Shown here piece by piece: positions 1 to 39,490 of a stretch of DNA of 64,000 nucleotides (position 1 is its first letter; every line of letters begins with the position of its first letter). The translations under genes and the position numbers were made by a program. The stretch is from an uncultured Acidobacteriota bacterium. Its GTDB lineage: Bacteria; Acidobacteriota; UBA6911; RPQK01. The DNA is taken from contig CAYQYP010000204.1 in the NCBI GenBank assembly GCA_964421755.1, positions 9,746-73,745 on the forward strand, written 5' to 3'. Under the pieces are notes generated by a model. The model was not told the origin of the DNA and searched no databases. It saw only the letters and a list, made by a program, of their open reading frames with translations.

Positions 1-918
1 GCCTTGGCGCATCTTCCTCGTCGGCACGCTGCGGTTGACCCAGGAACCGAGCGGGATCGACTGGTGGAACCAGGCGAAGAAGAAGAAGGTCCGGTCCTTG
101 ATGATAGGGCCGCTCACTTCGCCTTCCCACTCGTGCAGGATGTAAGGTGTCTTGGTTTTTGAGAAGTATTCTCTGCCGTTCATGGCCGAGTTCTCATGCT
201 TGTAATAAGCGGCGGCGTGCCAGGTGTCGGCACCGCGCTTCGAGATCATGTTGAAATTGGCCGCCCGGGCGCTGTCGGCACCCCCGTTGACCGGCGTCAC
301 TTGTACCGTCTCAAAGAAGGCCGGGTTGTCGTTCTGGTCGCCGGCGGTGTCGTTGGCAACCCCATCCATTGCCCAAGTCTGCTTGTTACGGTCCGAGATA
401 CCCGACATGACAAGGTTCCAGCCGTTTCCCTGGATTCCGGGCATGGTTGTCATCAAGGCCAGCGGCGAGGGATAGACATCCACCAGAGGCCTGTCGAGGA
501 ACTTCTTGGCTTCCAGCTCGCCGGAGATGGTGCCGGTTTCGGTGTTGATGGCGGCCGCTCCGGTCGTCACCGTGACCGTTTCGGACTGCATACCGACCTG
601 AAGCCCTACATCGAGACGGCGGACCTGGCCGGCGTCTACTTTGACGTCCTCGGCCACAAAGGAGCGGAACCCGGTCAAGTCAACTTTAACCCGGTAAAAC
701 CCCGGCTTCAGATCAGGCACCTCGAAGTTGCCGTAGGTGTCGGTTATCAGCTTCCGAACCTCGAGACTGGTTGCCTGGTCGATTACGACGATCTCTGCCC
801 CCGGAACTACTCCTCCGGATTGATCAGTGACCGTCCCCCTCAAGACGGACCTGTCGGTTTGAGCCACGGCCAAACCGACGGTAAGCAGGACGATGAGACC
901 CAGCAAACGCATTCGCAT
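1..918 (-). CDS. N-terminal part of a TonB-dependent-receptor-like outer membrane protein with a carboxypeptidase-regulatory-like N-domain. The gene continues beyond the window start.
   Basis: Reverse translation from the ATG at 918..916 gives MRMRLLGLIVLLTVGLAVAQ (signal peptide). It continues ...VTDQSGGVVPGAEIVV...GFYRVKVDLTGF, typical of a CarbopepD_reg beta-sandwich. An AGGAGG Shine-Dalgarno sits 5 nt upstream of the start. The track ORF 196..963(+) is its antisense shadow. Confidence 0.7.
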   Translation of the reverse strand, partial: MRMRLLGLIVLLTVGLAVAQTDRSVLRGTVTDQSGGVVPGAEIVVIDQATSLEVRKLITDTYGNFEVPDLKPGFYRVKVDLTGFRSFVAEDVKVDAGQVRRLDVGLQVGMQSETVTVTTGAAAINTETGTISGELEAKKFLDRPLVDVYPSPLALMTTMPGIQGNGWNLVMSGISDRNKQTWAMDGVANDTAGDQNDNPAFFETVQVTPVNGGADSARAANFNMISKRGADTWHAAAYYKHENSAMNGREYFSKTKTPYILHEWEGEVSGPIIKDRTFFFFAWFHQSIPLGSWVNRSVPTRKMRQG

Positions 919-1300
919 AGGGGACCTCCTCTGGGATGCACCTCCGAGACGAGCGAAGTCTAGTGGAACTGGCGAAACAGGAGAAGGAGTTTTTCGAACC
1001 AAGGGCTCTATTTCGCACTTCGAAAAAGAAAAGCCGGGTGAAATGAGGTTCGCAGATGAGCAGCCAGCTCTCAATCGCAGAGTTAAAACCACTGAATTTA
1101 CGGCACTTGACGCGCAGCGAGGGGAAACCAAACACCGGCACTAGCCGTGGGGGAACGGCTATTCTCCTGTCCGGTTGCGAGCCGACCAGCAAAGACCCGG
1201 GGAAAGTTGCCGGATCCCGCATTTCGTAGTACGAAAAATCAAGCGATCGAAACCAGGCGGGATCCGACTGAAGGCCCTGCGGCCCCGCCCCACGGCATCT

Positions 1301-1873
1301 TCAACTGTGGTCCCGAGAGCGCCGGAGCTGGCCGTTAACGCCGACCCGGGGCGGCTTCTCAAGGAGTCCCTCGAGGAGCTCCACCTGCCCTTCGAGGTGA
1401 AGGAGCCGGGTCCTTTTTTCCTGCAGCAGTCGAATCAATGAAGGCACCGGCTGGCTGCCATTTCCGTTATTGCCGCCGAATCTGCTTCGGCCATTGTCCC
1501 GCGTCGAAAACGGTCCGGCAAGTCGAAGATCAAGGCGAACCGATTGCGGCGTGACGCCGAACTGTTTTTTGAAAGAGCGGTGAAAATTCGAGCGGTCCTC
1601 GAACCCGACTCGCCTGGCAATTTCTGCGACCGTGAGGTCGGAGTGTTTCAATAGACGTTCCGCCTGTATGAGCCGGAGCTCCCCCACCAGGTTCTTGACC
1701 GATCGTCCGACGTTTTTGCGGAAGAGGTGCTGCAAGTGGCTTGGGGTAAGACGAGCCTCCTGAGCGAGATCAGACAGCAGGATCTTTGAGGTCGCATTCT
1801 GGCAGATTCGGCGAATTACGTAGCTGACTCTGGGGTCAAACGTGCTGCGAGTTCTCGATGTTTGCGAATGCAT
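1301..1873 (-). CDS. Short AraC/XylS-family transcriptional regulator, HTH domain only.
   Basis: HTH_18-type helix pair: ICQNATSKILLSDLAQEARLTPSHLQHLFRK...LTVAEIARRVGFEDRSNFHRSFKKQFGVTP. The C-terminal tail is low-complexity. Confidence 0.7.
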   Translation of the reverse strand: MHSQTSRTRSTFDPRVSYVIRRICQNATSKILLSDLAQEARLTPSHLQHLFRKNVGRSVKNLVGELRLIQAERLLKHSDLTVAEIARRVGFEDRSNFHRSFKKQFGVTPQSVRLDLRLAGPFSTRDNGRSRFGGNNGNGSQPVPSLIRLLQEKRTRLLHLEGQVELLEGLLEKPPRVGVNGQLRRSRDHS

Positions 1874-2207
1874 GTCTTGAGATTAGTGCGCCCACAAATG
1901 CGTTCGCAAATTTTTTTGTATATGCCAAAAAACCGCGGGATTTCGGGAACCAGAGGCGTCGCGAGGGCAGGCTGGGAGGGCCATTGTTCGTCCCGCGAAC
2001 CAGCCTGAGGTCCCCGAAATCTGCCGGCCGGCCGCACGTCCTAATGGTAACCGGCCATTGCTTTCACTACACCGATGTTTGCACCCGGAACCGGTCAGTT
2101 GGGAGGCCCCAGGCAGCTGCAATTCGGTTGTCGGTTGGCCTTATAGACGCTATACTTCCGCATTTGTGCAGAGGCGGCTTGGGAGTTGTCTGCCCTGAAG
2201 GAAGGTT

Positions 2208-2744
2208 ATGAGTCGAATTCGCAACCGTCGATTCTGGATGACCTCTGGTGTCGGTGTCCTTATCTCTCTGGCCGGATTGACGGCGAATCGTGTTTTCGCC
2301 GACGACGCGATGCCGAACATCGTGGTGTCGGTTGGCCTGAAGGTTCTCAGCATGCAGAAGCAGTTCAGCGGGAAGCCGGAGGGCATCACAGTGTTCGTGC
2401 TCGATGACGCGAACGTCGCCAAGGCGTTCCAGGCGAGTGTTAACACGACCGTTGGTTCCATGAAAGTGGCCCGAGTTCTTTCAGGCTCGGAGCTCCCGAC
2501 GGAAAAGCCGGATGTCCTTTTCATAGGCGGCAGAGACAAGGTCGAGGCGGCTATCGCCTATACCCGCACACAGAAGGTCCTGAGCATGGCCAGGAGCGAC
2601 AGACTGATTTCCAAGGGAGTCACTCTGACGGTTTACCAGACTCCGGACGGCAAAGCGCAGATCACGATGAACATGTCGGGGGCGTTGCTCGAAGGCGTGG
2701 ACATCAACCCGGCGACTCTCAAGGTGGCGAGCGTGGCCAAGTAA
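2208..2744 (+). CDS. YfiR-like (DUF4154) periplasmic protein with a signal peptide.
   Basis: Signal peptide MTSGVGVLISLAGLTANRVFA. The C-terminal segment DVLFIGG...KGVTLTVYQ...DGKAQITMNMSGALLEGVDINPATLKVA resembles the YfiR/DUF4154 fold. A GAAGG Shine-Dalgarno precedes the ATG. Confidence 0.55.
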   Translation: MSRIRNRRFWMTSGVGVLISLAGLTANRVFADDAMPNIVVSVGLKVLSMQKQFSGKPEGITVFVLDDANVAKAFQASVNTTVGSMKVARVLSGSELPTEKPDVLFIGGRDKVEAAIAYTRTQKVLSMARSDRLISKGVTLTVYQTPDGKAQITMNMSGALLEGVDINPATLKVASVAK

Positions 2745-2787
2745 GACTTGGCGCTCCAACTGACTATGGGCCACAGGTAACAAGACA

Positions 2788-4818
2788 ATGAACCTCTCAT
2801 CTATTCGAGTCAAAATCCTCTCGATCGTAATCGGCATTGGGGTGGTCTTCAGTCTGTTGCTGGCCTTTTACACGCCCTACCAGTCAAAGGTGATGGGAAA
2901 CGCCATCCTGCTCAAAAACGCCGAGTTCATAACCAATCTGCTCGCCGATAACCTGGCCCTGGGTATGCAGACCATCATCGTCGACGATGGTGCCGCTCTC
3001 AAGCAAACGCTTTCGCTGCTAAACGGTCGGGAGAATGAAGAAGCCATCTCCACGGTGCGGATTTTCGACGACCAGATGAAATACGTCGACGGGCTGAAGG
3101 GTGAGGCGCAGAAGGCCGTTCTCGGGCCGGTCGAGAGGATGTTGCTCGAAGATCAGGGCGACCGGTTGCTGGCCTGGACGCCGATGCGGGACGCCGATCG
3201 AAAGACCGTGGGGTATCTGGAGATCGAATTTTCCAAGGGATATCTGGAGGCGGCCAGTACCCAAAACGCCAGGCGTAACCTTCTGATCGCCGTAGCTGCC
3301 TTTGGACTCACCATGCTGATCACACTTTTGACCGTCGGCAAGGTTGTCCAGGCCATTCAACGCCTATCGGTCGCGGCACGGCACGTTACCTCGGGCAAGA
3401 TCGATGTTTCGATCGATGTCAACTCCCAGGACGAGGTGGGAAATCTGGCGGAATCGCTGCGGGAAATGATTCGGATTCAACGCGAACGGGCTGTTGCGGC
3501 CAACCGTTTCTCGCAGGGAGACCTGAGTGCCGAGGTGAGGACTATGGCCGACGACGATGTTCTGGGCAACGCCATGGTCCGGATGAAAGAAAAGATACAG
3601 TCAATGGTCGGCGAGATCCGGTTGCTCGCGTCCGCCGCAGTGGAAGGACGACTCGGCTATCGCGCCGATGTATCCCGCCACGGCGGCGAGTTTGCCGAGA
3701 TCATCAGCGGTGTAAACAACACGATGAGCGCGGTCATCGGTCCCATCAACGAGGCGTCCTCCGTGCTGGAGCGTGTTGCCGCAAAGGATCTGACCGCTCG
3801 CGTAGCCGGAAGCTACAAGGGTGAGTTGGTCACGATGACAGTGGCGATGAATACCGCTGTTGACAACCTGGACAAGGCGCTCCAACTGGTGGTTGCAGGG
3901 GCCGAGCAGGTTGCGTCCGCGTCCAGCCAGATCACCGGAAGCAGTCGCTCGCTGTCGGAGGGCGCCGGGCGTCAGGCCAGCACCCTGCAGGAGGTGTCGA
4001 GCAACCTCCAGGAGATGGCAGCCACAACCACGCAGAACGAATCAAGCGCCAAAGAAGCTCACCGGCTCTCAGCCGAAGCCCAGACGAGCGTAGACCACGG
4101 AATGGCGGACATGAAACGGCTGTCGGACGCCATCGCTCGGATCAAGGCTTCCTCCGATTCAACCGCAAAGATTGTAAAAACAATCAATGAAATTGCGTTT
4201 CAGACCAACCTGCTCGCCCTGAATGCCGCCGTTGAGGCGGCCCGGGCTGGCGACGCGGGTCGCGGGTTCTCGGTCGTGGCGGAAGAAGTGCGTAACCTGG
4301 CCATGCGCAGCGCCGACGCGGCAAGGAGCACGTCGAACCTGATCGAGGAGTCGGTAAGGAACGCGGAGGCGGGCGTCACCATCAATCACGACGTGGTCGG
4401 GAGCCTCTCCCAGATCGCCGGCCAGGTGACCGCCATGCGAAACGCGCTCGCCGAGATTGCGGCCGCATCCGAACAGCAGAGCCTCGGCCTGCATCAGGTG
4501 AACACCGCGGTCGAGCAGATCAACCAGGTAACCCAGCAGACCGCGGCGAGCGCCGAGGAGTGCGCCAGCGCAGCTTTCGAGTTAAACCAGGAAGCGGACG
4601 AAATGAAGCGGATGGTCTCAATGTTCCACTTGAGCGGCGGGGAGCTACACAAAGACCGCGAAGAACAGGGACTTGACAGCCTGCAGATGGGGTCGAAGCC
4701 GCTTGTCCCGGGCAACGGCGCTCAAAAACGCCTGAATCCTAACCCTCTGCTCCCCGGGGCGGGCAGGACCATTGAGGCAGCAATCTCCCGCCGGACAGAC
4801 CGATACACCGGGATCTGA
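2788..4818 (+). CDS. Methyl-accepting chemotaxis protein with an N-terminal transmembrane helix, a periplasmic sensor region, HAMP repeats and an MCP signalling domain.
   Basis: Transmembrane helix [18 protein letters not shown]. Second transmembrane helix [23 protein letters not shown]-like segments. Conserved MCP core [43 protein letters not shown]. Confidence 0.9.
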
Positions 4819-4857: not shown

Positions 4858-5271
4858 CTATCCAACCAGCGCAAAAGTGTTGGGCGCGACCCGCTTGAAG
4901 CGACGACCGAGTTGTATGTAGCGCTGCAAAGCCGTCGTCACCGCACTCGGACTGACGTAAACGCCTACCGTCTTGATCCGCTCGGCCAACTCCTTGACAT
5001 GCAGTGGCTCTCCGCTTTCCCGGAGCGTCTGTTCGACAGCATCGGGAATCGAAATCCCCGCCTTCTTTCGAGAGCGGGCTGCCCCTGCACGGGGACTCTC
5101 CGGGCTTTTCTGCTCGGTCAGGTCGGCCTCGGGCATGCCGTGGCGCAACAGAGTCTCCAGTAAATCCACCTGAGCCTGCAACCTGATCAGTTCGGTCTTC
5201 TTCTCCCGCAGCAGTTCCTGCAGCTCATTCATATAGCGAGTGTAGCACGATTTGCCACTCTCTATATACAA
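4858..5271 (-). CDS. Hypothetical protein with an N-terminal coiled coil and a C-terminal winged-helix domain (HARE-HTH/Mrr-N-like).
   Basis: Sequence ELQELLREKKTELIRLQAQVDLLETLL followed by ISIPDAVEQTLRESGEPLHVKELAERIKTVGVYVSPSAVTTALQRYI. The true start may be the internal MNELQ at ~5232. Confidence 0.45.
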   Translation of the reverse strand: MYIESGKSCYTRYMNELQELLREKKTELIRLQAQVDLLETLLRHGMPEADLTEQKSPESPRAGAARSRKKAGISIPDAVEQTLRESGEPLHVKELAERIKTVGVYVSPSAVTTALQRYIQLGRRFKRVAPNTFALVG

Positions 5272-12469: not shown

Positions 12470-12554
12470 TGGTGCGAAAGGGGGGACTCGAACCCCCACG
12501 GGTTTCCCCACTGGATCCTAAGTCCAGCGCGTCTGCCAATTCCGCCACTTTCGC
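12470..12554 (-). tRNA. tRNA-Leu: tRNA-Leu with anticodon UAG, class II with a long variable arm and an encoded CCA.
   Basis: Reverse-complement reading gives GCGAAAG-TG-GCGG-AATTGGCAG-ACGC-G-CTGGA-CTTAGGA-TCCAG-TGGGGAAACCCGT-GGGGG-TTCGAGT-CCCCC-CTTTCGC-A-CCA. Perfect 7-bp acceptor stem, TTCGAGT T-loop, anticodon loop CTTAGGA. Confidence 0.85.
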
Positions 12555-15655: not shown

Positions 15656-17284
15656 TCAAAACCTGAAGCCCGCGCCGACACTGATCCTCGGAGTGTGCCG
15701 GGTTTCGAACTGGCCTTGAAAAAATGGCGGCTCAGAGGCGGAGTAGCGCCACATACCCATCGGTTGAGAAACAACCGTGTCCGTTACATCCAGTCGGAAG
15801 AAGAATCGATCGGATCGATAGACACCGAAATCGTAGACTTCCAGTACTCCTCCAAAGTCCAGGGCAAACCGGTTTGCATTGACGATTAGATGCGTGACGT
15901 TTAAGGAACCCAAGTGCTTGCGTTCGGTTAGGAATCCCGGCCGGACGACCCCGAACACGCCCCAGCCCGGCCTTCTGACCCCTGCCTTGACTCCAAACAA
16001 TGTAAGAAATCTTTCTTCAAAATTGCCCGGCCAGTAGTTGGTTTGCCCCTCGAGCGCCAGGTGGTTATTCAGATTGTAGGCGAACCTCGCACCACCGCCC
16101 CGCTCCCCGAACTGTCCCGGTGCAGCAGCCACAGAAAGGAAGTGACTAAACGAGGAGTAGTGTCCTCCAATTTCGAATCTCTTCACCGCCGGCGGCGCAG
16201 GTTTGTCGCCCTGGTAAATAGAGGGGCCGCGGAGAATGCTCGGTTCCTTTTTGGTTAAGGTGAAACGGCCACTGTCCAGGACTATGGTTTGCTTTTCAGT
16301 CAGCCGGATCGAAGCTGCGCGGAAGTCGCTGCCTGAATCGATGTAGATCGAGTAACTCCCGTCTTGCATTCCAAGCGCGATTTGGCGGCCTTCCGTTTTG
16401 AGCAATTCGGTCACCAACTGCCTGTCTGCATTCAGAATGTAAACCCGGCCACTTAGGGCTTCGGGGAGCACGAGTATCGAGGACACCCCGCGAACGTCGG
16501 TCAAGACCAACTCGCCAGTGCCCGACATCTGGATATCGTAAGCAGGATGCTGGGGCCCGCCCTGAGTTTTTGCAGTCCGGCCGAGTGTCTCGTTGTATGA
16601 GAAGTCATAGGCCTCGTTCAAGCTGACCTTGCCGTCTGTGTTTGAGTCGGCCGCGCCCCTCAGCGCTGAGATGAGATAGTAGGTAAAGAAAGATGCCCGA
16701 ATCCGGTCTGATTCCTGGGCGGTTTCATTCTCCGAGCTGGAGGTGAGGAAGGCATAGCCTTTCATATCGGCGGGCGATGTAGCCAGAAAGGCTGGTTCCC
16801 GAATGACTCCCTTCTGCCTGGTTATGGCGCCGGACGCACACGCGTCGAGCACCGCCACGTTTACATCCGCCTTAAGAAGGGCCATCTCTTCCCTGATCTT
16901 CGGGTAGGGAAACCGGGTTCCCCCGAGCAGAAGACCCTGGTCATCTGCGTGGCCGGAGTAGTAGAAGAGGACCTCCACACGTTCATTGGCCGCCCGGCTT
17001 TCCTTGATCTCAACCCTCAACGCTTCAAGCGCCTTGCCGAAGTCAATCAAGGAAGGCTCCCGGAGAATCCGGCAATCCTCCCTTCGCACGCCGCCAAGCT
17101 GTTGCATCAGTCGGGCAAACGCTTCGGCATCGGAGACCGCATAGCTCAAGGTCGGGCGACTGGGGCCACCCCGGTTGGCACCCGAAACGATCGCATAGCG
17201 GCGAACGGCAGCCGCCGAGGAGAGCGAGTGCGCCAGGATAAAGACGATCAACAGGGCGAAGAGGGTCAAAATAGGTTTTTTCAT
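15656..17284 (-). CDS. Secreted caspase-family (peptidase C14) protein fused to a C-terminal beta-barrel, outer-membrane-like domain.
   Basis: Signal peptide [26 protein letters not shown]. Catalytic His in [13 protein letters not shown]. Catalytic Cys in [11 protein letters not shown]. The C-terminal ~250 aa has alternating amphipathic beta-strands and ends ...ISVGAGFRF (terminal Phe, the OMP signature). The start overlaps the anti-sigma stop (ATGA). Confidence 0.75.
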
Positions 17285-18075
17285 CGTGTTTCTTCCTTTT
17301 GGAGCAGTACCGTCGACTGTTGATAGCCGGCAGGCAGCGACAGGCCCCCGCTTCGGTGATCCCAACTCGTCTTCGGTGTCCGTATTGCGTCCTTAACCAG
17401 CTGGACCGGGAACGGATGATTGGATGTAACAAAGAAAAAGATCTCTCCTTTCGGCGCTTGATCCAGGCGGAAGGCCGAAGGTAAAGGAGTTGCTCGTCCC
17501 TTGGAAATCTCAACCGCTTGAACCCCCTGCTCGGGGAGATGCTGAGTGATGCTTCCTTGCCCGTCCACCGAGAGAATGGCTCCGTAACTGTGTCCGGCGG
17601 AGTAGTAGGACAACTGAATGAGGTCATTACTTCCCACTTTGCCGCCGTCGCTGAGCTGCCGAATCCCTTCGGCTGTCTTTAGGAAGACGAGTAAGCGTGT
17701 TTGATCTCCCTTCGCACGCACTCCTTCTACTGGGGGCTGGGTGGCTTGGTTGGCCTGCCAGAAAAACGGCAAGCTGAGTCCGGCGATCAGCATGGCCGAC
17801 AACAACGCGAGACTGAACGGGGAGAAGAACAGGCTTCGAACAGGTCCGCGTTTCTGCTCGGCCGGGGACACCATCCGATCGCGGATCTTGGCGCTGAACC
17901 GGTCAGGCGGGTACCGACTGAGAAGCGCTTCACCAGATTGCCGAAGCTGGTTTAGCTTCTGGGCAACGGCTGGGTCCGAGGCGACAGCCCGTCTCACCTG
18001 CTCGGCCTCGTTGGGTTCCAACTCATCAAGCAGGAAGCGTTCTAGCCAAATCTCCGGGATCTTCTGGCTGCTCAT
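17281..18075 (-). CDS. Membrane-spanning anti-sigma factor without a zinc finger, with a periplasmic C-terminal domain.
   Basis: Start at the internal ATG 18075, with a GGAG Shine-Dalgarno and ATGA overlap with the sigma stop. N-terminus MSSQKIPEIWLERFLLDELEPNEAEQVRRAVASDPAVAQKL is an anti-sigma N-terminal domain. Transmembrane helix SLFFSPFSLALLSAMLIAGLSL. About 150 aa periplasmic region. Confidence 0.7.
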   Translation of the reverse strand: MSSQKIPEIWLERFLLDELEPNEAEQVRRAVASDPAVAQKLNQLRQSGEALLSRYPPDRFSAKIRDRMVSPAEQKRGPVRSLFFSPFSLALLSAMLIAGLSLPFFWQANQATQPPVEGVRAKGDQTRLLVFLKTAEGIRQLSDGGKVGSNDLIQLSYYSAGHSYGAILSVDGQGSITQHLPEQGVQAVEISKGRATPLPSAFRLDQAPKGEIFFFVTSNHPFPVQLVKDAIRTPKTSWDHRSGGLSLPAGYQQSTVLLQKEETR

Positions 18076-18584
18076 AGTTTCTCCAGTTCTCGCAGGCTTT
18101 TTCTCAAGCGCTCGAGTCTCTTTCGCACTCCCGAAACCGACATCCGGAATTCGACAGCCACCTGCTCCAATGTCATTCCGTCCAGGAAATGCATAACCGC
18201 CATGACCCGGGAGGAGACAGGATGTCGTCTGAACAACTTCTCGAGGAGCATGGACGAGTCCCAATCCGGAACCGCCGCTATGCAGCGCAGAAGCTCTTCC
18301 TCGCTGTTCATCTCTCTTGCCCGATGCTTGCTTCGGATCCGGTTCAGGCAAACGTTTGTCGCAATCCGATAGAGGAGGCTGGACGGGTAATCGGGAGTCA
18401 GTTTGGTGCGATGCTGAATGACTTGGACGAAAACATCCTGCATGGCATCCTCCGCTTCCCGTTCGTCGCACAGTAGTTTCAGGCATCGCCTGAAGACCAT
18501 AGGACCGTAGCGTTGATAGAGGTCCGCAATATCCATAGCCGCGCTCGTCTCGAACGACCACCGGTTGTCGTGTGTTTCCCGCAT
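18072..18584 (-). CDS. ECF-subfamily RNA polymerase sigma-70 factor.
   Basis: Region 2 DIADLYQRYGPMVFRRCLKLL...AEDAMQDVFVQV. Region 4 LEQVAVEFRMSVSGVRKRLERLRKSL. The track ORF begins at a GTG at 18605. The ATG at 18584 (MRETHD) is proposed as the start. Confidence 0.85.
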   Translation of the reverse strand: MRETHDNRWSFETSAAMDIADLYQRYGPMVFRRCLKLLCDEREAEDAMQDVFVQVIQHRTKLTPDYPSSLLYRIATNVCLNRIRSKHRAREMNSEEELLRCIAAVPDWDSSMLLEKLFRRHPVSSRVMAVMHFLDGMTLEQVAVEFRMSVSGVRKRLERLRKSLRELEKL

Positions 18585-18777
18585 CTCTATCGTCTTGTTC
18601 CGCACCCTTAAACACCGGGAGAATTGCGATCTGTCACCTCGTGGGAACTTTTCTTATCTCCCATCTCGCTTGCGAACCGCTTGAAAATGGAAAACGAAAC
18701 ACCGGTTCCCAGAATCGAGGCAGTCAATTAGATGCAGCAAACCCGCTGGATGGTCGCAAGACAAGGAGCGACGACGG

Positions 18778-27787: not shown

Positions 27788-28442
27788 CGTTGCTGTTTTG
27801 GGCCTGCTTTTTTTGAGTCCGCTTCTGCTGGTTTTGGCATGCCTCGTTAAGTTGACCTCTCCCGGTCCGGTGTTTTACAGGCCTCTGCGAGTCGGTCAAG
27901 GCGGGCGGCTGTTCAGACTCAACAAGTTCCGAACCATGGTTCCGGATGCTGAGCGTCTGGGCCCCGGGATCACCGGTCATCGTGACGCGCGAGTCACAGG
28001 GGTGGGCAGGTGGCTTCGCAGGTGGAAGTTGGACGAGCTCCCGCAACTTCTTAATGTCCTGGCCGGAGAAATGGCGCTTGTAGGCCCCAGACCCGAAGAC
28101 CCTAGATACGTTGAATATTACCGGCCGGAGCACGCTGCTGTCCTGTCCGTACGGCCCGGGATAACCGGGGCGGCGAGTCTCGTCTACAGGAATGAGGAAG
28201 AAGCCCTCACGACCCGTAATTGGGAGCAGGAATACATAGCGCGTCTTCTTCCCGCAAAGCTTTTGATCGAGCTGGAGTACCTCGGTCGACGGAACGCTTG
28301 GACGGACCTGAAGCTGGTCTTTGAAACGCTGGGAGCAATTCAAGCTGCCCCCGGCTCTACGAGGAAGAAAGCGCAACCAGTCCACCCCCGTCTGGCGCCG
28401 TCCGACCGGGAGAAAAGGGCGTCATTGGCCGACCGGATATAA
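27768..28442 (+). CDS. Small PglC/WbaP-C-like phosphoglycosyl (sugar-1-phosphate) transferase, the initiating enzyme.
   Basis: Single N-terminal transmembrane helix VAVLGLLFLSPLLLVLACLV. Followed by PGPVFYRPLRVGQGGRLFRLNKFRTM...DELPQLLNVLAGEMALVGPRP, the bacterial sugar transferase signature. It overlaps the upstream gene by 20 nt. Confidence 0.85.
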   Translation: MRWLDFSVAVLGLLFLSPLLLVLACLVKLTSPGPVFYRPLRVGQGGRLFRLNKFRTMVPDAERLGPGITGHRDARVTGVGRWLRRWKLDELPQLLNVLAGEMALVGPRPEDPRYVEYYRPEHAAVLSVRPGITGAASLVYRNEEEALTTRNWEQEYIARLLPAKLLIELEYLGRRNAWTDLKLVFETLGAIQAAPGSTRKKAQPVHPRLAPSDREKRASLADRI

Positions 28443-28467
28443 GCATCAAACAACGCGAGGAGTCACT

Positions 28468-30582
28468 ATGTCGGGCCTGATGAGGCGTCAGGATTCAGTT
28501 CAGGATCAATCGGACGACTCGATCTGGATCGATCAGTTCCTGGAGGAGAAGGACGTCGATTTACTCCGCTACCTGCGGATCATGTGGAAGAGAAAGTGGC
28601 TCGTATCGGCGGTCCTTGCGACAGTAGTGGGAATCGCTGCGCTCTGGACTTTCAGCGCGACGCCGCTTTACCGATCAAGCGTGAAGATTCAGATTGATCC
28701 GGAGGAGAAAGTTCTCCCCTATCAGCAGGTTCTTGACCTCGTCACTAATCCGCGTCATCTGCAGACCCAGACCGAAATTCTGACCAGCCGGATGCTAAGT
28801 GAGCGCGTCAGCCGCGCTCTTCAAAGCAAGGATGGGGTCACTCGGCCCCCGTTCATCGGTTCCTATTTGAAGGTTGATGTCGTCCCAAACACCCAAGTTG
28901 TAAAGGTCAGCTACACGTCAGAGGACCCGACATTTTCGGCGGATGCGGCCAACCTCGTGGCTGAGGAGTACATCCGCTACAACTTCGAGAGCAGGTACAA
29001 CGCGACACTCGAGGCTCGCAACTTTCTTCAACGCGAGCTGTTTGAGGTGAAAAAGAAACTGGAAAAGTCAGAGGAGGAGCTCGCGCGCTATTCCGAATCA
29101 CACGACCTCCACACTGTTTCCGAAGAGGACAATGCTGTAGTTCAGAAGCTGTTTGCGCTTAATAAGGAGCTGACCGAAGTCGAGCAGCGGTTACGGGCCA
29201 ACCGTTACGACGACATTCGGAATTCGACTTCCGCGACCTTCCCGGACAGCTTGAAGAGAGAGACTGTCAAGCAATTGGAGATGCGCCTGTCCGATGCCCG
29301 GCAAAAGCTTGCGGCCTTGTCCGTTGAATTTGGCCCAAATTGGCCCGAGGTAAAGCAGTTGCGGCAGGATATCGCCAACCTGGAGCGCGATCTGGAGGCG
29401 GAGGTGGAGAAGACAGTGGACCAGCAACGCCTGGAATACCAGCTCGACGAAGAACATCGGCGACGCGTCAACGCTTCGATTGCCGCTCACGAACGTCTCG
29501 TGAACCGACTCCGCTCTGACTTGATCCAGTACAACATCATCAAGCGGGAAGTGGACACCGACAAGGAACTTTATGAGGGCTTGCTCCAAAGACTCAAGGA
29601 AGCCGGAGTCTCCGCAGGGCTGAAATCGAACAACATACGTGTCATCGAACAAGCCAGAATTCCCCAGGTCCCATATTCCCCAAACAAGCTGCTCAATCTC
29701 ATCCTGGCAGTTGTTGCGGGGCTGGTTCTCGGTTTCGGATTGGCGCTGTTCGCCGAGCACGTAGATGCGAGTCTGAATAGTCTGGAAGACGTGGAGCAGT
29801 ACGTTGGTTTGCCCTCCCTGGCTTCGATACCGGTCCTGCGACTAGCGCCGGACAACGACCCACGGTTTATGACGATGGAAGCACTGGAGGCAGTGAGCGC
29901 GAATTCGTTCATCGGCGAGGACGCTGGACAGCAGGAGAGCTATCGAGCCCTGAGGACTTCTATTCTCCTTTCCTGCGCCGGAAGGCCGCCTCAGACGATA
30001 TTGGTCACGTCCTCACTTCCCGGGGAAGGCAAGACAACTACAGCCTTGAATCTGAGCGCTTCGCTTGCGCAGACCGGCCGAAGCGCGGTGCTGGTCGAGC
30101 TCGATCTCCGGAGAGGATCCGCCAGCAGGATCCTGAAGCCGGATGGCACCTGCGGTATGAGCGGCTACTTGTCCGGCCACTGCGAACTGGCGGACGTGGT
30201 GGAAAACACTGGAGTGCCGAACCTCTATCTTATGCCGGCCGGCGCCCCACCGCCCAATCCGGCCGAACTTGTCGGTTCAAAAAGGATGGAGCTGGCATTG
30301 GAAACGCTGGCTCGATCCTTTGATTACGTAGTTTTGGATTCTCCGCCGGTACTCAGCTTCACGGATGCGGTCGTGGTATCTACGTTGGTCGACGGCGTCG
30401 TCTTCGTTGTCCAAGGTGGAAAGACCTCCCGAAGCGCCGCGCAGCAGGCCAAGAAGCAGCTGGCCATTGTGGGGGCCCACGTTCTCGGAACGGTCATGAA
30501 CCGAGTGAAAGGCCTTAGTTCGGGCTGCTACGCTTACTACCCGGAACCCGACGCCTACCAGAAAAGGACCTGGCACGGCTAG
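28468..30582 (+). CDS. Wzc-like polysaccharide co-polymerase (PCP-2a) with a C-terminal BY-kinase domain and a Tyr-rich tail.
   Basis: GAGGAG Shine-Dalgarno before the ATG at 28468. Transmembrane helix, Wzz/GumC region, long coiled coil, second transmembrane helix. Walker A SSLPGEGKTTTALNLSASLA. Walker B VVLDSPPV. C-terminal CYAYYPEPDAY. Confidence 0.85.
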   Translation: MSGLMRRQDSVQDQSDDSIWIDQFLEEKDVDLLRYLRIMWKRKWLVSAVLATVVGIAALWTFSATPLYRSSVKIQIDPEEKVLPYQQVLDLVTNPRHLQTQTEILTSRMLSERVSRALQSKDGVTRPPFIGSYLKVDVVPNTQVVKVSYTSEDPTFSADAANLVAEEYIRYNFESRYNATLEARNFLQRELFEVKKKLEKSEEELARYSESHDLHTVSEEDNAVVQKLFALNKELTEVEQRLRANRYDDIRNSTSATFPDSLKRETVKQLEMRLSDARQKLAALSVEFGPNWPEVKQLRQDIANLERDLEAEVEKTVDQQRLEYQLDEEHRRRVNASIAAHERLVNRLRSDLIQYNIIKREVDTDKELYEGLLQRLKEAGVSAGLKSNNIRVIEQARIPQVPYSPNKLLNLILAVVAGLVLGFGLALFAEHVDASLNSLEDVEQYVGLPSLASIPVLRLAPDNDPRFMTMEALEAVSANSFIGEDAGQQESYRALRTSILLSCAGRPPQTILVTSSLPGEGKTTTALNLSASLAQTGRSAVLVELDLRRGSASRILKPDGTCGMSGYLSGHCELADVVENTGVPNLYLMPAGAPPPNPAELVGSKRMELALETLARSFDYVVLDSPPVLSFTDAVVVSTLVDGVVFVVQGGKTSRSAAQQAKKQLAIVGAHVLGTVMNRVKGLSSGCYAYYPEPDAYQKRTWHG

Positions 30583-30629
30583 GCGATCTCTCCCCGACAT
30601 CCCAGCGCGCAATTGAAAGGAGCACGGTT

Positions 30630-32588
30630 ATGAGTCAGGCAGACGGTACCGCACTCCAGCATCTCGCCACTGAAACAACTTTCGATCGGCTCATCAAGGT
30701 GAGCCAGAAACTGCTGTTCCGGCGTGTCAGTCAGGTGGCGTTGGATGCCCTCGTCGTCGCCAGCGCTCTTTTTACTGCTTACCTGGTCCGATTTGACGGT
30801 GAGATCCCTGCGGACCACTACTCGCAGGTTCTGAGGCTGCTTGCCGTAACCCCGGTCCTGTACTTGGCAACGAGCTCCGTCGTGGGAGTTTACGGTCAGG
30901 TGTGGAGATACACCTGCTTGAGAGATATCCAATGCCTCGTTCTGTCAGTCGGCTGCAGTTCCCTGGTGGTTCTGGTCGTCCGAATAGCTGAACATCCGAT
31001 TGGTGGAACAGGTCTGCCGTTGGGCGTTGTGCTCCTCCAACCGATCCTGACGTGCGGAGGTTGGGTGGGCTGCAGGCTGTTACGACGGGTCATGTATCAC
31101 CGGACGGTTCCTAGTGATGTCGGACGGCGGGGTCTTATGGCCCGGCGACGGATGGTCCTTGTTGGGGCCGGGCAGGCAGGAGTGTACCTGGTTCGGGAGT
31201 TCCTGAAAGCGAAGCAGTCCGATCTTGTAGGGTTCCTGGATGACAATCCCGAGCTCCACGGCAGGAGGATCGAAGGACTGAAGGTACTGGGCAGCACTCG
31301 TGATTTGGAGAAGGTCGTCGCCCGGGAGAGGATAGGTGAAGTGGTCCTCAGCATGCCGAGCACCGCCCGCTCCGTCACTCTTTCCCTTGCTGACCGGTGC
31401 CGAAAGGCGGGAGTAAGAGTTTCGACGGTTCCATCCGTTACCGAAATACTTTCAGGCGAACTCGGCATAACCGAGATCCGCCCCGTCCAGATGGAGGATC
31501 TACTCGGACGATGCAGCGTCGACTGTTACGCCCCCCCTGAGTTCCTCAAGACCTATCGGGGCAAACGCATTATGGTGACCGGCGCGGGGGGATCGATCGG
31601 ATCGGAGCTGGTCAGACAACTGAGGAGGCTGGAACCCTCGTCATTGATCTTGCTCGACAAGGACGAAAACAGCCTCTACGAAACTGTCTTGGAGATTCAA
31701 GAAGATTTCGACAATGTGGCCGAGATCATCGCGGACATCAAGGATCAGGCGCGACTCAACAAGCTGTTTGGCGAGCTGATGCCACAGATCGTCTTTCACG
31801 CCGCCGCCTACAAGCATGTTCCACTCATGGAAACATGCCCGGCGCAGGCGGTTCAAAACAATGTCATCGGGACGCGCAACGTGGTGGCTGCAGCCGATCG
31901 CTTTGGCGTCGAGCGCTTCGTTCTGATCTCAACGGATAAGGCCGTGAACCCGTCGAGTGTCATGGGGGCGTCCAAACGAGTTGCTGAAATGATTGTCCAA
32001 GGCAGCGCCGCCCGCGACCGGCGTTACTGCAGCGTCCGGTTCGGCAACGTTCTGGGTAGTCGAGCGAGCGTTGTGCCTCTTTTTCAGAAGCGGATCAGAC
32101 AAGGCAAGACCATCCCGGTCACGCATCCCGATGTGGAGCGTTACTTCATGACGATTCCGGAAGCTGTCCACCTCGTCATCCAGGCCGGCTCTATAGGGCA
32201 AGGGGGCGAGATCTTCATGCTGGACATGGGAAAACCGGTCAAGATTATGGAGCTCGCCCGGAATCTGATCCGTCTGTCCGGCCTGGAGCCCGAAAAGGAC
32301 GTCCAGATCCAGATAACCGGAATGAGGGCGGGGGAGAAGCTCTATGAGCAGTTGATGGTCGACGGACAGGACACCATCTCCTCGACCAGACATCCGAAGA
32401 TTTTTGTGGTGCACGCGGCGTCTCCGGATCCCTTCCTGGTTCAGCAGCACTTGCGCCGGCTCGAAAAAGCTGCCGCCGACGACGACGATGCAGAGATCAG
32501 GAGACTCTTCGGCGGCCTCCGGATTGGGTACAAACCGCCCTCTCGCAGGGCTTACGGCAAGACGGCAGCATCTCTCCGGTTTAACTGA
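30630..32588 (+). CDS. CapD/WbpM/PglF-like membrane-anchored NDP-sugar 4,6-dehydratase (polysaccharide biosynthesis protein CapD).
   Basis: Four N-terminal transmembrane helices. Rossmann motif VTGAGGSIGSEL. Further motifs ISTDKAVNPSSVMGASKRVAE, RFGNVLGSRASVVPLF. Confidence 0.9.
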   Translation: MSQADGTALQHLATETTFDRLIKVSQKLLFRRVSQVALDALVVASALFTAYLVRFDGEIPADHYSQVLRLLAVTPVLYLATSSVVGVYGQVWRYTCLRDIQCLVLSVGCSSLVVLVVRIAEHPIGGTGLPLGVVLLQPILTCGGWVGCRLLRRVMYHRTVPSDVGRRGLMARRRMVLVGAGQAGVYLVREFLKAKQSDLVGFLDDNPELHGRRIEGLKVLGSTRDLEKVVARERIGEVVLSMPSTARSVTLSLADRCRKAGVRVSTVPSVTEILSGELGITEIRPVQMEDLLGRCSVDCYAPPEFLKTYRGKRIMVTGAGGSIGSELVRQLRRLEPSSLILLDKDENSLYETVLEIQEDFDNVAEIIADIKDQARLNKLFGELMPQIVFHAAAYKHVPLMETCPAQAVQNNVIGTRNVVAAADRFGVERFVLISTDKAVNPSSVMGASKRVAEMIVQGSAARDRRYCSVRFGNVLGSRASVVPLFQKRIRQGKTIPVTHPDVERYFMTIPEAVHLVIQAGSIGQGGEIFMLDMGKPVKIMELARNLIRLSGLEPEKDVQIQITGMRAGEKLYEQLMVDGQDTISSTRHPKIFVVHAASPDPFLVQQHLRRLEKAAADDDDAEIRRLFGGLRIGYKPPSRRAYGKTAASLRFN

Positions 32589-32606
32589 TACAAGCTCGGG
32601 TCCATT

Positions 32607-33902: not shown

Positions 33903-33911
33903 TAAAAGCAA

Positions 33912-34784: not shown

Positions 34785-34900
34785 CCCCCCGTCTAGCCCA
34801 CGTCTAGCCCGGATTCGCGCGTTGAACCCCCGGGTATGCCCGCCCGAGCTGCGCACGCAGCGAGGGCGCTGAAAATGCTGAAAATGATGCGGACCCGATC

Positions 34901-35716: not shown

Positions 35717-35734
35717 CAGGTTGGAGGTGGTCTC

Positions 35735-38927: not shown

Positions 38928-39490
38928 AGTTCGAGGAAACCAGGCTCAAAGGCGCTTTTCTCATCCGTGCGACACCGTTCGAGGATGAACGGGGCTTCTT
39001 CGCCCGGACGTATTGTGAAAAGGAATTCGCGAGCCACGGGTTGAATCCCCGCGTGGTGCAGTGCAGTGTCTCCTACAGCAGAAAAAGAGGCACCCTGCGA
39101 GGTCTTCACTTTCAGAAGGCCCCGCACCGGGAGGCGAAGCTGATTCGCTGTGCTAGAGGAGCGATTTACGACGTCATCGTGGACCTGAGGCCGGAATCAT
39201 CCACGTTCTGCCAATGGCTTTCCGTGAATCTGTCCGCTGCCGAAGCGCACCCCCTGATGCTCTATGTCCCCGAGGGTTTCGCCCACGGTTTTCAGACCTT
39301 GGAGGACCACACCGAAGTTCACTACCAGATGTCCGAGTTCTATCAGGCGGAAAGCGCCAGCGGCGTTCGCTGGAACGATCCGGCCTTTAGCATCGACTGG
39401 CCGATCTCTGAAGTCACCATGTCAAACAGAGACGCCAATTACCCGGATTTCCGGGCTTTAATCGAGACAGGAGTCAATGGCGTCAGTTGA
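38923..39490 (+). CDS. dTDP-4-dehydrorhamnose 3,5-epimerase family (RmlC-like cupin) NDP-sugar epimerase.
   Basis: GTG start overlapping the upstream stop (GTGA). FEDERGFFARTY...LRGLHFQ...EAKLIRCARGAIYDVIVDLR...YVPEGFAHGF are the RmlC catalytic blocks. Confidence 0.8.

What the first reader, a model, noticed from the sequence alone, without database searches (positions are those of the whole stretch)
2208..4818. YfiR-like periplasmic protein paired with a chemoreceptor (MCP) instead of a diguanylate cyclase
YfiR/DUF4154 proteins are best known as periplasmic repressors of the YfiN/TpbB diguanylate cyclase. Here a DUF4154-like secreted protein is encoded 44 nt upstream of, and co-oriented with, a transmembrane MCP that has a ~150 aa periplasmic sensor and HAMP repeats. 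No che genes are adjacent. This suggests a YfiR-type periplasmic modulator coupled to a chemotaxis-type transducer, a less-described wiring.
Basis: inference. Interest (0 to 1): 0.55.

Follow-up and report, generated by a model that had tools for sequence, protein, structure and literature searches.

The report
YfiR-like protein paired with chemoreceptor
A small secreted protein related to YfiR, which switches off a biofilm enzyme in other bacteria, is here encoded in an operon with a chemotaxis-type receptor whose outer sensor domain is a distant relative of YfiR's usual target, and the pairing is conserved across many uncultured bacterial phyla but has never been studied.

Summary
ORF 2208..2744 (+) is a secreted DUF4154/YfiR-family protein: Pfam 33 bits against a cutoff of 24.9, and its top 14 PDB fold matches are all YfiR. 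ORF 2788..4818 (+), 43 nt downstream, is a transmembrane MCP with HAMP, HAMP_2 and MCPsignal domains.

- The MCP's unannotated periplasmic domain is a PDC/PAS-like fold and a distant relative of CHASE8, the YfiN/DgcN domain that YfiR binds (hhalign 30.3 vs shuffles 10.7±2.1).
- Its most conserved patch matches YfiN's YfiR-binding region.
- The DUF4154 C-terminal pocket motif is also conserved.

Both halves of the YfiR–YfiN periplasmic module are therefore present, with an MCP output. In 26 loci found through the DUF4154 gene, 20 have this MCP next door. All 5 testable loci found through the sensor have DUF4154 upstream. They span more than 10 phyla, all MAGs or metagenomes.

Differences from YfiBNR are no YfiB, no YfiR cysteines and no GGDEF domain. 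A TonB-dependent receptor lies within two genes in 17 of 31 loci, sometimes inside che operons.

Prior art is one line in a 2012 supplementary table (Polaromonas). No function has been tested.

Verdict: a new variant of a known kind, of moderate interest.

The parts
1..1131 (-). N-terminal 377 aa of a TonB-dependent-receptor-like outer-membrane protein (CarboxypepD_reg plus OMP_b-brl_4). It runs off the window start and is divergent from the pair, with one gene in between. It is a possible outer-membrane partner, but the association in this window is weak.
   Evidence: Pfam CarboxypepD_reg 65.5 bits and OMP_b-brl_4 59.7 bits. phmmer and tblastn match the TBDR of L005. A TBDR lies within two genes of the DUF4154 gene in 17 of 31 unique loci.
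1301..1873 (-). AraC-family HTH regulator (190 aa), divergent neighbour. It is not seen next to the pair in the related loci whose gene tables were examined.
   Evidence: Pfam HTH_18 85.4 bits and HTH_AraC 66.1 bits. The gene tables show no such neighbour.
2128..2156 (+). Sigma-70-like promoter candidate upstream of the DUF4154 gene (TTGTCG-17-TATACT).
   Evidence: Consensus scan. This is a weak pattern match only.
2208..2744 (+). Secreted DUF4154 (YfiR/HmsC-family) protein, 178 aa.
   Evidence: Pfam DUF4154 33 bits vs cutoff 24.9. AlphaFold model (pLDDT 68.5) has YfiR structures as its top 14 PDB hits (TM 0.6-0.72, 17-19% identity). There are 19 close homologs.
2208..2300 (+). Predicted signal peptide (residues 1-31, cleavage after VFA).
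   Evidence: Read from the sequence. N-termini of homologs are variable but have the same character. No signal-peptide predictor was run.
2661..2729 (+). Most conserved segment of the DUF4154 protein (residues 152-174, ITMNMSGALLEGVDINPATLKVA). It corresponds to the hydrophobic docking pocket of P. aeruginosa YfiR.
   Evidence: Conservation across 26 paired loci. Alignments to E. coli and P. aeruginosa YfiR. Pocket residues are from PMC4887326.
2745..2787 (+). 43-nt intergenic spacer with no terminator-like site.
2788..4818 (+). Transmembrane methyl-accepting chemotaxis protein, 676 aa.
   Evidence: Pfam HAMP, HAMP_2 and MCPsignal. The conserved N-terminus MNxSSIRVK in orthologs supports the start codon.
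2875..3276 (+). Periplasmic sensor domain (residues about 30-163). It has a PDC/extracytoplasmic-PAS fold and is a distant CHASE8 relative.
   Evidence: AlphaFold model with pLDDT 80.4. Foldseek hits WalK, KinD and CitA sensor domains. hhalign vs DgcN periplasmic domain scores 30.3, E 4.3e-5, with 200 shuffles reaching at most 16.9. CHASE8 is the only sensor-type Pfam family hit by family members.
2926..3021 (+). Most conserved patch of the sensor (residues 47-78, [32 protein letters not shown]), at the membrane-distal end of helix 1 and the two short helices after it. It aligns with the YfiR-binding 'AAVVF' region of YfiN/DgcN.
   Evidence: Conservation. Alignments. YfiN genetics are from PMC3375315.
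3334..3471 (+). First HAMP domain (residues 183-228).
   Evidence: Pfam HAMP.
3676..3873 (+). HAMP_2 domain (residues 297-362), part of a poly-HAMP linker.
   Evidence: Pfam HAMP_2 61.5 bits. NCBIfam's best partial match is Aer2.
4069..4533 (+). MCP signalling domain (residues 428-582), the interaction hairpin for CheA and CheW.
   Evidence: Pfam MCPsignal 142.9 bits.

Best explanation
The two genes encode a YfiR/YfiN-type periplasmic partner module whose output is a chemoreceptor instead of a diguanylate cyclase.

Proposed mechanism:
1. The DUF4154 protein is exported to the periplasm.
2. It docks through its conserved C-terminal hydrophobic pocket onto the membrane-distal helical cap of the MCP's CHASE8-like sensor domain. 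This holds the receptor in one signalling state.
3. An envelope-side event removes or alters the DUF4154 protein. In relatives this probably involves the neighbouring TonB-dependent receptor rather than a YfiB lipoprotein.
4. The change passes through TM2, the HAMP array and the MCP hairpin to a CheA/CheW complex encoded elsewhere in the genome.

Shown here: homology of both partners to YfiR and to the YfiN sensor domain, conservation of the two predicted contact regions, and strict gene pairing. Inferred: physical binding, the sign of the effect on kinase activity, the releasing cue, and the downstream Che pathway in this organism.
For: - DUF4154 membership by Pfam and by fold, with the top 14 PDB hits all YfiR.
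- The sensor domain has a PDC/PAS-like fold and is related to CHASE8 of DgcN/YfiN. The periplasm-only profile vs DgcN gives hhalign score 30.3, E 4.3e-5 and probability 69%, against 200 shuffles at 10.7±2.1 with a maximum of 16.9. CHASE8 is the only sensor-type Pfam family hit among 92 members, with 3 hits and a best E of 1.9e-4, in register over the whole domain for P0086. DgcN aligns from TM1 to TM2 with P0086 and P0069.
- Conservation in the sensor peaks at residues 47-78 and 132-153, while the central beta-sheet (87-131), where PDC domains bind small ligands, is variable. Residues 55-75 align with the YfiN 'AAVVF...DG...TL' patch that genetics identified as the YfiR site.
- The DUF4154 C-terminus is its most conserved part. 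It maps onto YfiR pocket residues L166/I169/V176/P178/L181 as M156/A159/I166/P168/L171.
- Pairing: 20 of 26 DUF4154-ascertained loci have the CHASE8-like MCP adjacent. All 5 sensor-ascertained loci that could be tested have DUF4154 directly upstream, including a hybrid histidine kinase (L012), which shows the module is portable.
- Of 126 proteins carrying the sensor, 101 have MCPsignal.
- In L008, L019, L025 and L031 the pair sits among cheW, cheR and cheA.
- Malone et al. showed that YfiR represses YfiN by binding its periplasmic domain and proposed that the module is modular.
Against: - No binding or functional data exist for any MCP-coupled member.
- The CHASE8 relationship is remote. A family HMM against the DgcN sequence finds nothing, the window protein itself has no CHASE8 hit, and all member hits fall below Pfam's cutoff of 27 bits.
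- The 'AAVVF' motif is not literally conserved. There is an 8-residue deletion, and the central Phe is Val or Leu here.
- The C-terminal 22 residues of the DUF4154 model have pLDDT below 50, so the pocket is inferred from alignment only.
- A mirror-tree test gave no specific co-evolution signal: DUF4154 vs sensor r=0.54, lower than DUF4154 vs the cytoplasmic domain at r=0.69.
- Four DUF4154 loci have no adjacent sensor (L021, L030, L032, L036), so the protein can have another partner.
- The window has no che genes, so the output pathway is unverified here.
Confidence: 0.6

Rival explanations
1. Binding-protein-dependent chemoreceptor. The DUF4154 protein acts as a small periplasmic ligand-binding protein. 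It captures a compound, possibly one imported by the neighbouring TonB-dependent receptor, and only the liganded form docks on or leaves the MCP sensor. This would resemble MBP-Tar, LuxP-LuxQ or TorT-TorS.
For: The YfiR fold resembles one lobe of ABC-type substrate-binding proteins; the Rhodothermus SBP entries 6k1y and 5z6v, plus 3lft and 3lkv, appear among the fold hits. YfiR crystals bind vitamin B6 and L-Trp in the same C-terminal pocket (PMC4887326). TBDR genes are adjacent in 17 of 31 loci, and TonB-like, ExbB and ExbD genes are adjacent in L030. The variable central sheet of the sensor argues against direct small-ligand sensing by the MCP itself.
Against: YfiR's affinities for VB6 and L-Trp are 35-77 mM, which is not physiological. 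The protein is a single-lobe domain of about 145 aa with no hinge. No conserved polar pocket residues beyond the hydrophobic ones were identified. Canonical YfiR acts without any known ligand.
Confidence: 0.2
2. The primary partner of the DUF4154 protein is the TonB-dependent receptor or the TonB machinery, for example a plug- or TonB-box-binding factor. The MCP is co-encoded only for co-regulation and does not bind DUF4154 directly.
For: TBDR-DUF4154 pairs occur without an adjacent sensor in L021, L030 and L032, and in L030 they sit next to TonB-like, ExbD and ExbB genes. The associated TBDRs share one plug type, with TOL_0244 as best NCBIfam match over the plug only.
Against: 14 of 31 loci, including L001-L004, have the DUF4154-MCP pair with no TBDR nearby. 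The DUF4154 and sensor genes are almost always immediately adjacent and co-oriented, with gaps of 10-100 nt. The sensor is homologous to YfiR's known target. L021 and L032 are truncated soon after the DUF4154 gene, so their lack of a sensor is uncertain.
Confidence: 0.12
3. Functionally unrelated neighbours: the adjacency is a chance or purely syntenic feature of this lineage.
For: In this window there are no che genes, and the flanks (an AraC regulator, a HARE-HTH protein, an amidohydrolase) suggest no pathway.
Against: The pair is retained while the flanks change completely, across Acidobacteriota, Zixibacteria, KSB1, Poribacteria, Marinimicrobia, GN15, Calditrichota, Fibrobacteria, Ignavibacteria and Desulfobacterales. 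Both proteins are homologous to a proven interacting pair.
Confidence: 0.03

Closest known systems
YfiBNR / TpbB / AwsXRO / HmsCDE system (P. aeruginosa, E. coli, Y. pestis)
   Same: Both have a secreted DUF4154 protein encoded immediately upstream of, and co-oriented with, a membrane sensor of architecture TM-periplasmic PAS/PDC-like domain-TM-HAMP. The periplasmic domain is homologous, distantly, to CHASE8. The C-terminal pocket motif (N..., xNPxxLKxA) and the membrane-distal patch on the sensor are conserved.
   Different: The output is an MCP signalling hairpin behind a poly-HAMP linker, not GGDEF. There is no YfiB/Pal-like lipoprotein in the window or in any of about 35 related loci. None of YfiR's four conserved cysteines is present, so the DsbA/redox control cannot apply. 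The protein is not a YfiR equivalog (21.6 vs 85 bits). The literal AAVVF motif is absent. A TonB-dependent receptor is frequently a neighbour.
Divergent YfiR-'YfiN' pairs with other outputs (Malone et al. 2012, Table S4)
   Same: The principle is the same: a YfiR plus periplasmic sensor core with a swapped cytoplasmic output. One Polaromonas example with an MCP output is listed, and Acidobacteria, Opitutus and Rhodothermus examples with histidine kinase outputs.
   Different: Those were single genome observations in a supplementary table, with no analysis. The family here is large (111 clusters at 50% identity), overwhelmingly MCP-coupled, found outside Proteobacteria, and linked to TBDR and che genes. 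I did not compare the Polaromonas protein directly, so it may or may not belong to this subfamily.
Binding-protein-dependent chemoreceptors and sensors (MBP-Tar, RBP/GBP-Trg, LuxP-LuxQ, TorT-TorS)
   Same: A soluble periplasmic protein encoded with, or acting on, a transmembrane receptor and controlling it by docking on the periplasmic domain.
   Different: Those partners are two-lobe Venus-flytrap binding proteins with known ligands. DUF4154 is a single-lobe domain of about 145 aa whose canonical member acts as a ligand-independent repressor.
WalK-YycH/YycI (Firmicutes)
   Same: The best structural match of the sensor domain is the extracytoplasmic PAS/PDC domain of WalK. That domain is controlled by accessory extracytoplasmic proteins rather than by a known small ligand.
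   Different: There is no sequence homology of the accessory proteins. YycH and YycI are membrane-anchored, and the output is a histidine kinase.
Cell-surface signalling (FecA-FecR-FecI)
   Same: Relevant only to the novel reading: an outer-membrane TonB-dependent receptor passes information to an inner-membrane signalling protein through a periplasmic contact.
   Different: The TBDRs here have no N-terminal STN signalling extension (Plug plus barrel only). The intermediary would be a soluble DUF4154 protein, and the output would be a Che pathway rather than an ECF sigma factor.

Membership tests
DUF4154 / YfiR-HmsC family (Pfam PF13689) | Score at or above the Pfam gathering threshold over most of the domain | tested here: met
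   33 bits vs 24.9, E 7.7e-8, profile positions 25-142 of 143. Partner-linked homologs from other phyla score 26-40 bits.
DUF4154 / YfiR-HmsC family (Pfam PF13689) | YfiR three-dimensional fold | tested here: met
   The AlphaFold model (pLDDT 68.5) has YfiR chains as its top 14 Foldseek PDB hits (E 2e-5 to 1e-3, TM 0.6-0.72). The C-terminal 22 residues are low-confidence.
YfiR proper (NCBIfam NF053586 equivalog; repressor of the YfiBNR system) | Equivalog-level sequence score | tested here: not met
   21.6 bits vs cutoff 85. The clade profile does not reach PDB YfiR sequences at E<=1. Identity to E. coli YfiR is 14%.
YfiR proper (NCBIfam NF053586 equivalog; repressor of the YfiBNR system) | Two conserved cysteine pairs (C71-C110 and C145-C152 in PAO1) that give DsbA/redox dependence | tested here: not met
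   The window protein has no cysteine. Homologs have 0-2 non-conserved Cys. The feature is defined in PMC4655355.
YfiR proper (NCBIfam NF053586 equivalog; repressor of the YfiBNR system) | Conserved C-terminal hydrophobic docking surface (PAO1 F162, L166, I169, V176, P178, L181, L183) | tested here: met
   By alignment these are I152, M156, A159, I166, P168, L171 and V173. N155, P168 and K172 are invariant or nearly so across 26 loci. This is an alignment-level test only.
YfiR proper (NCBIfam NF053586 equivalog; repressor of the YfiBNR system) | Export to the periplasm | not tested
   A signal-peptide-like N-terminus is visible in the sequence. No predictor or experiment was run.
YfiBNR tripartite system | Partner is a CHASE8-HAMP-GGDEF diguanylate cyclase (YfiN/DgcN) | tested here: not met
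   The partner has HAMP, HAMP_2 and MCPsignal and no GGDEF domain.
YfiBNR tripartite system | Partner's periplasmic domain is CHASE8 (Pfam PF17152) | tested here: inconclusive
   The window protein has no Pfam hit. Three of 92 family members hit CHASE8 below cutoff, best E 1.9e-4. The profile-profile link to DgcN is significant against shuffles. It is a distant relative, not a Pfam-level member.
YfiBNR tripartite system | 'AAVVF' YfiR-binding motif on the sensor | tested here: not met
   The aligned segment is MQTIIVDDG in the window and MQTxxLDDG in the consensus. The hydrophobic character and the following DG...TL are kept, but the AAVVF sequence and the central Phe are not.
YfiBNR tripartite system | YfiB OmpA/Pal-like outer-membrane lipoprotein encoded in the operon | tested here: not met
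   tblastn with E. coli YfiB finds nothing at E<=0.01 in the window or in any fetched locus.
Methyl-accepting chemotaxis proteins | MCP signalling domain (PF00015) with the conserved hairpin tip | tested here: met
   142.9 bits vs cutoff 34.6. The tip sequence [30 protein letters not shown] is present.
Methyl-accepting chemotaxis proteins | Works with CheA and CheW (and CheR/CheB) in a chemosensory pathway | not testable with these tools
   The 64-kb window has no che genes, and the rest of the genome is not available. Orthologous pairs lie within che clusters in L008, L019, L025 and L031.

The most novel reading that the evidence does not exclude
The TonB-dependent receptor, DUF4154 protein and CHASE8-like MCP form an outer-membrane-to-chemoreceptor relay. 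The soluble YfiR-like protein reports the occupancy or transport state of a specific TonB-dependent receptor to an inner-membrane chemoreceptor, so the TBDR takes the place of YfiB. Cells could then perform chemotaxis, or another Che-controlled response, toward large or scarce substrates that cannot diffuse through porins to reach a conventional chemoreceptor.

The support is genomic only. A TBDR lies within two genes in 17 of 31 loci. The operon order is cheW-TBDR-DUF4154-MCP-MCP-cheR-cheA in L019 and L031, with a similar arrangement in L008. TBDR-DUF4154 sits next to TonB-like, ExbB and ExbD genes in L030. The TBDRs share a plug type (TOL_0244-like).
Probability: 0.2. Interest if true: 0.8.

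Novelty: new variant of a known kind. Interest (0 to 1): 0.52.

Why it matters
Chemoreceptors are usually thought to sense small molecules directly or through classical two-lobe binding proteins. This is a sizeable family of MCPs (111 clusters at 50% identity, more than 10 phyla, almost all uncultured). Their sensor domain looks built to bind a dedicated YfiR-type protein rather than a ligand.

If that is confirmed, three things follow:
- The YfiR-YfiN 'protein-sensing PAS domain' mechanism would be a general, portable input module feeding c-di-GMP, two-component and chemotaxis outputs.
- A clear function would be assigned to many DUF4154 genes and to an unannotated MCP sensor domain.
- Through the recurrent TonB-dependent receptor neighbour, it would suggest a testable route by which events at the outer membrane reach the chemotaxis machinery.

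For this particular window the finding is one more member of that family in an Acidobacteriota-like genome, with no che genes nearby.

Tried and rejected
- **Family HMM vs DgcN:** a plain profile-to-sequence search with the sensor-family HMM found only a TM2 overlap of 5.6 bits. The link appeared only with profile-profile comparison and through bridging members.
- **Clade profile vs PDB:** the DUF4154 clade profile found no YfiR at E<=1. hhalign of the clade against E. coli YfiR aligned only the C-terminal 30 residues, with 5% probability. Membership therefore rests on the Pfam model and the fold.
- **AFDB fold search:** a Foldseek search of the sensor model against afdb50, to see whether YfiN-type cyclases rank first, was not possible because the library was unavailable.
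- **Mirror-tree co-evolution:** the test across 24 MCP-type pairs gave no specific signal and is treated as uninformative.
- **Word-index search:** with the sensor alone it found only 2 hits. The alignment query and the exhaustive search were needed.
- **L011:** this hybrid kinase with the same sensor starts 306 nt from a contig end, so the presence of DUF4154 could not be judged.
- **Considered and rejected:** 4HB, sCache or dCache annotation for the sensor (no Pfam support); a FecA-type signalling TBDR (no STN extension); a redox-sensing role like YfiR's (no cysteines).
- **Literature:** searches for DUF4154, CHASE8, YfiR with chemoreceptor or methyl-accepting, YfiR with TonB, and TOL_0244 found no study of this wiring beyond Malone 2012. 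The last search was swamped by 'hMSC' papers.
Full report
**1. What is in the sequence**

The ORF listing gives ORFs at exactly the reported coordinates: 2208..2744 (+), 178 aa, and 2788..4818 (+), 676 aa. A 43-nt spacer separates them.

The first ORF hits only Pfam DUF4154 'YfiR/HmsC-like' (E 7.7e-8, 33 bits against a gathering cutoff of 24.9). It begins with a basic then hydrophobic N-terminus that ends in VFA|DD, which reads as a signal peptide by inspection.

The second ORF has HAMP, HAMP_2 and MCPsignal domains (142.9 bits). Two hydrophobic segments flank a periplasmic stretch of about 135 residues that matches no Pfam family even at E=10.

A promoter-like site (2128-2156) and a GGAAGG ribosome-binding site precede the first gene. 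No terminator-like site lies in the spacer.

tblastn with CheA, CheW, CheR and CheD queries finds no che genes in the whole window.

**2. Is the small protein really YfiR-like?**

It is a family member but not an ortholog. The evidence against orthology:
- NCBIfam's YfiR equivalog model gives 21.6 bits against a cutoff of 85.
- A profile of its 19 close homologs (52-100% identity; alignment A3) does not reach YfiR sequences in the PDB.

The fold does match. An AlphaFold model built on that alignment (pLDDT 68.5, with the C-terminal 22 residues poor) has YfiR crystal structures as its top 14 Foldseek hits in the PDB (TM 0.6-0.72, 17-19% identity).

None of YfiR's four conserved cysteines is present (the feature is described in PMC4655355).

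The most conserved part of the protein across 26 paired loci is the C-terminus...NMSGALLEGVxxNPAxLKVA. I aligned it through E. coli YfiR to P. aeruginosa YfiR. It covers the hydrophobic pocket L166/I169/V176/P178/L181, which binds YfiB F57 and overlaps the proposed YfiN-binding surface (PMC4887326; PMC4655355). The equivalents here are M156/A159/I166/P168/L171, with N155, P168 and K172 essentially invariant.

**3. What is the MCP's periplasmic domain?**

An AlphaFold model of residues 1-190 (pLDDT 80.4) shows:
- a long helix continuing from TM1;
- two short helices;
- a five-stranded sheet;
- a return helix into TM2.

Foldseek's best PDB matches are the extracytoplasmic PAS/PDC domains of WalK, KinD and CitA.

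An exhaustive phmmer search of 1.84 billion representatives found 111 clusters with this domain. Together with the earlier hits this made 126 proteins:
- 101 carry an MCP signalling domain;
- 3 are (hybrid) histidine kinases;
- the rest are fragments.

The test for CHASE8, the periplasmic domain of YfiN/DgcN (115.7 bits in E. coli DgcN), gave a remote but consistent link:
- The family HMM did not find DgcN.
- When 92 members were scanned individually against Pfam, CHASE8 was the only sensor-type family hit. There were 3 hits, best E 1.9e-4, all below cutoff; all other families were coiled-coil noise.
- P0086 matches CHASE8 positions 2-101 of 102 in register.
- DgcN aligns from TM1 to TM2 with P0086 and P0069.
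- A periplasm-only profile of 101 members against DgcN residues 43-152 gives hhalign score 30.3, E 4.3e-5 and probability 69%. Two hundred shuffles of DgcN give 10.7±2.1 with a maximum of 16.9.

The shared motifs are NLAL...[hydrophobic]3-x-DG-x-A-x-x-x-TL and P-x-R-x-x-G-x-x-x-G-x-V. The first contains the 'AAVVF' patch that Malone et al. identified genetically as the YfiR-binding site at the membrane-distal face of YfiN's PAS domain (PMC3375315). In the MCP family this same region (residues 47-78) is the most conserved part of the domain. The central sheet (87-131), where PDC domains usually bind small ligands, is variable. I conclude that the sensor is a divergent CHASE8 relative whose conservation pattern fits a protein-docking surface.

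**4. Is the pairing conserved?**

*Starting from DUF4154 homologs.* P0019, P0011 and P0003 each have the MCP 18-97 nt downstream, in three unrelated flanking contexts.

*Starting from the sensor.* Four of four shorter (about 520 aa) MCPs at 37-47% identity have a DUF4154 gene 18-58 nt upstream. A hybrid histidine kinase with the same sensor (L012) does too. A sixth locus (L011) was cut by a contig end.

*Genome scan.* A scan of GTDB species genomes with the subfamily motif returned 24 loci, all MAGs:
- Acidobacteriota (the closest at 72% identity) and Holophagae
- Poribacteria, KSB1, Zixibacteria, GN15
- Desulfobacterales, Neomarinimicrobiota, Calditrichaceae
- Fibrobacteria, Ignavibacteria and unclassified bacteria

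Local ORF and HMM classification of those 24 loci gave:
- 17 with DUF4154 directly followed by the CHASE8-like MCP;
- 1 with a TBDR between them;
- 2 with kinases;
- 4 with no recognised sensor adjacent, two of which are truncated soon after the gene.

*Overall tally.* Counting unique loci including the window (31):
- 24 are MCP-coupled;
- 2 are kinases with the same sensor;
- 1 is another kinase;
- 4 have no adjacent sensor.

Among the 26 loci ascertained through DUF4154, 20 are MCP-coupled.

**5. Context seen in relatives**

Two features recur.

*TonB-dependent receptors.* A TBDR gene lies within two genes in 17 of 31 loci. It is often directly upstream on the same strand (L005, L008, L012, L019, L021, L029-L032) and once between the two genes (L023).
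- These receptors have Plug plus barrel with no signalling extension.
- Most have the NCBIfam 'TOL_0244 family' model as best match, over the plug region only and far below cutoff.
- In L030, TBDR-DUF4154 lies beside ExbB and two ExbD genes and a 371-aa ORF that I read as TonB-like from its C-terminal sequence; that ORF had no Pfam hit.
- The window has the N-terminal 377 aa of a CarboxypepD_reg/OMP_b-brl_4-type receptor at 1..1131 (-), divergent and with an AraC regulator in between. Receptors of this type are, from general knowledge, abundant in Acidobacteria, so this single instance is weak evidence.

*che genes.* In 8 of 31 loci che genes are present. The order is cheW-TBDR-DUF4154-MCP-MCP-cheR-cheA in L019 and L031, with similar arrangements in L008 and L025.

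No YfiB homolog occurs in the window or in any locus.

**6. Mechanism**

The best-supported reading is a YfiR/YfiN-type partner module with a chemoreceptor output. The exported DUF4154 protein docks by its C-terminal pocket on the membrane-distal cap of the CHASE8-like domain and sets the signalling state of the MCP. A periplasmic or outer-membrane event changes that occupancy, and the signal passes through the poly-HAMP linker to CheA and CheW.

Shown here:
- homology of both parts;
- conservation of both predicted contact regions;
- obligate gene pairing;
- portability to kinase outputs;
- embedding in che operons in relatives.

Inferred:
- binding itself;
- the sign of the effect;
- the releasing cue;
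- the output pathway in this organism.

The rivals are:
- ligand-dependent docking, as for MBP-Tar. It is supported by the SBP-like fold and by weak VB6 and L-Trp binding to YfiR.
- a primary role with the TBDR/TonB machinery. It is supported by the sensor-less TBDR-DUF4154 loci.
- unrelated neighbours. This is effectively excluded by the conservation.

**7. Comparison with what is known, and novelty**

Malone et al. 2012 showed that YfiR represses YfiN through its periplasmic PAS domain. [quoted passage not shown] Their Table S4 also lists 'Polaromonas: YfiN has MCP output domain' and an Acidobacteria example with a kinase. The wiring was therefore foreseen and once noted, but I found no paper that analyses or tests it.

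What this analysis adds:
- the MCP-coupled form is a large, phylogenetically broad family with its own unannotated sensor domain;
- it lacks YfiB and the redox cysteines;
- it is recurrently linked to TonB-dependent receptors and che operons.

I rate it a new variant of a known kind, of moderate interest. The outer-membrane-relay reading is the high-value but unproven possibility.

**8. Limits**

- All relatives are metagenomic or MAG sequences.
- Only the DUF4154 subfamily carrying the C-terminal motif was sampled, so the share of MCP partners in the whole DUF4154 family is unknown.
- No multimer prediction could be run.
- A mirror-tree test was uninformative.

Noticed in passing
window 1..1131 (-): A partial ORF running off the window start encodes the N-terminal 377 aa of a CarboxypepD_reg plus OMP_b-brl_4 TonB-dependent-receptor-like protein. 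The ORF listing does not list it because it is open-ended. TBDRs recur beside DUF4154 genes in relatives.
   Followed up: partly
L019 4056-13730; L031 3866-13784; L008 126-11378: A TonB-dependent receptor gene is embedded inside chemotaxis operons, in the order cheW-TBDR-DUF4154-MCP-MCP-cheR-cheA. This is an unusual operon composition that suggests coupling of outer-membrane transport or sensing to a Che pathway.
   Followed up: partly
L030 4832-10321: TBDR-DUF4154 lies with no adjacent sensor, next to ExbD, ExbD and ExbB genes and a 371-aa ORF that looks TonB-like but has no Pfam hit. The same MAG (JAFGCO01) also carries a full cheW-TBDR-DUF4154-MCP cluster (L031).
   Followed up: partly
L027 6944-11002; L029 2000-5420; L036 6947-8579: Some loci carry two DUF4154 paralogs, either in tandem or flanking a TBDR. 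This echoes the two-YfiR Thauera operon noted by Malone et al.
   Followed up: no
window about 28300..62700 (+): A large exopolysaccharide or glycan biosynthesis cluster: a Wzz/GNVR tyrosine-kinase-type co-polymerase (28321-30582), Polysacc_synt_2 (30630-32588), a DUF4910/DUF2172 protein, a carbamoyltransferase (47475-49427) and several glycosyltransferases. L001-L004 also have the DUF4154-MCP pair near polysaccharide genes. This is probably coincidental, but YfiBNR controls exopolysaccharide production in Pseudomonas.
   Followed up: no
window 15656..17365 (-): A 569-aa ORF with a caspase-like Peptidase_C14 domain, followed by a 444-aa ORF (17281..18615) with no Pfam hit.
   Followed up: no
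window 4858..5271 (-): A 137-aa protein with a C-terminal HARE-HTH domain (29 bits) lies convergent with the MCP, 40 nt from its stop codon. No function is evident.
   Followed up: no
window 12470..12554 (-): A single tRNA-Leu (anticodon tag) is the only RNA gene found in the window by ARAGORN and Rfam.
   Followed up: yes
NCBIfam models NF053586 (YfiR) and NF053590 (TOL_0244 TBDR): The best NCBIfam model for the DUF4154-linked TBDRs has an accession number close to that of the YfiR model. This hints that NCBI curators may have built them together from the same neighbourhoods. The model's notes could not be read with these tools.
   Followed up: no
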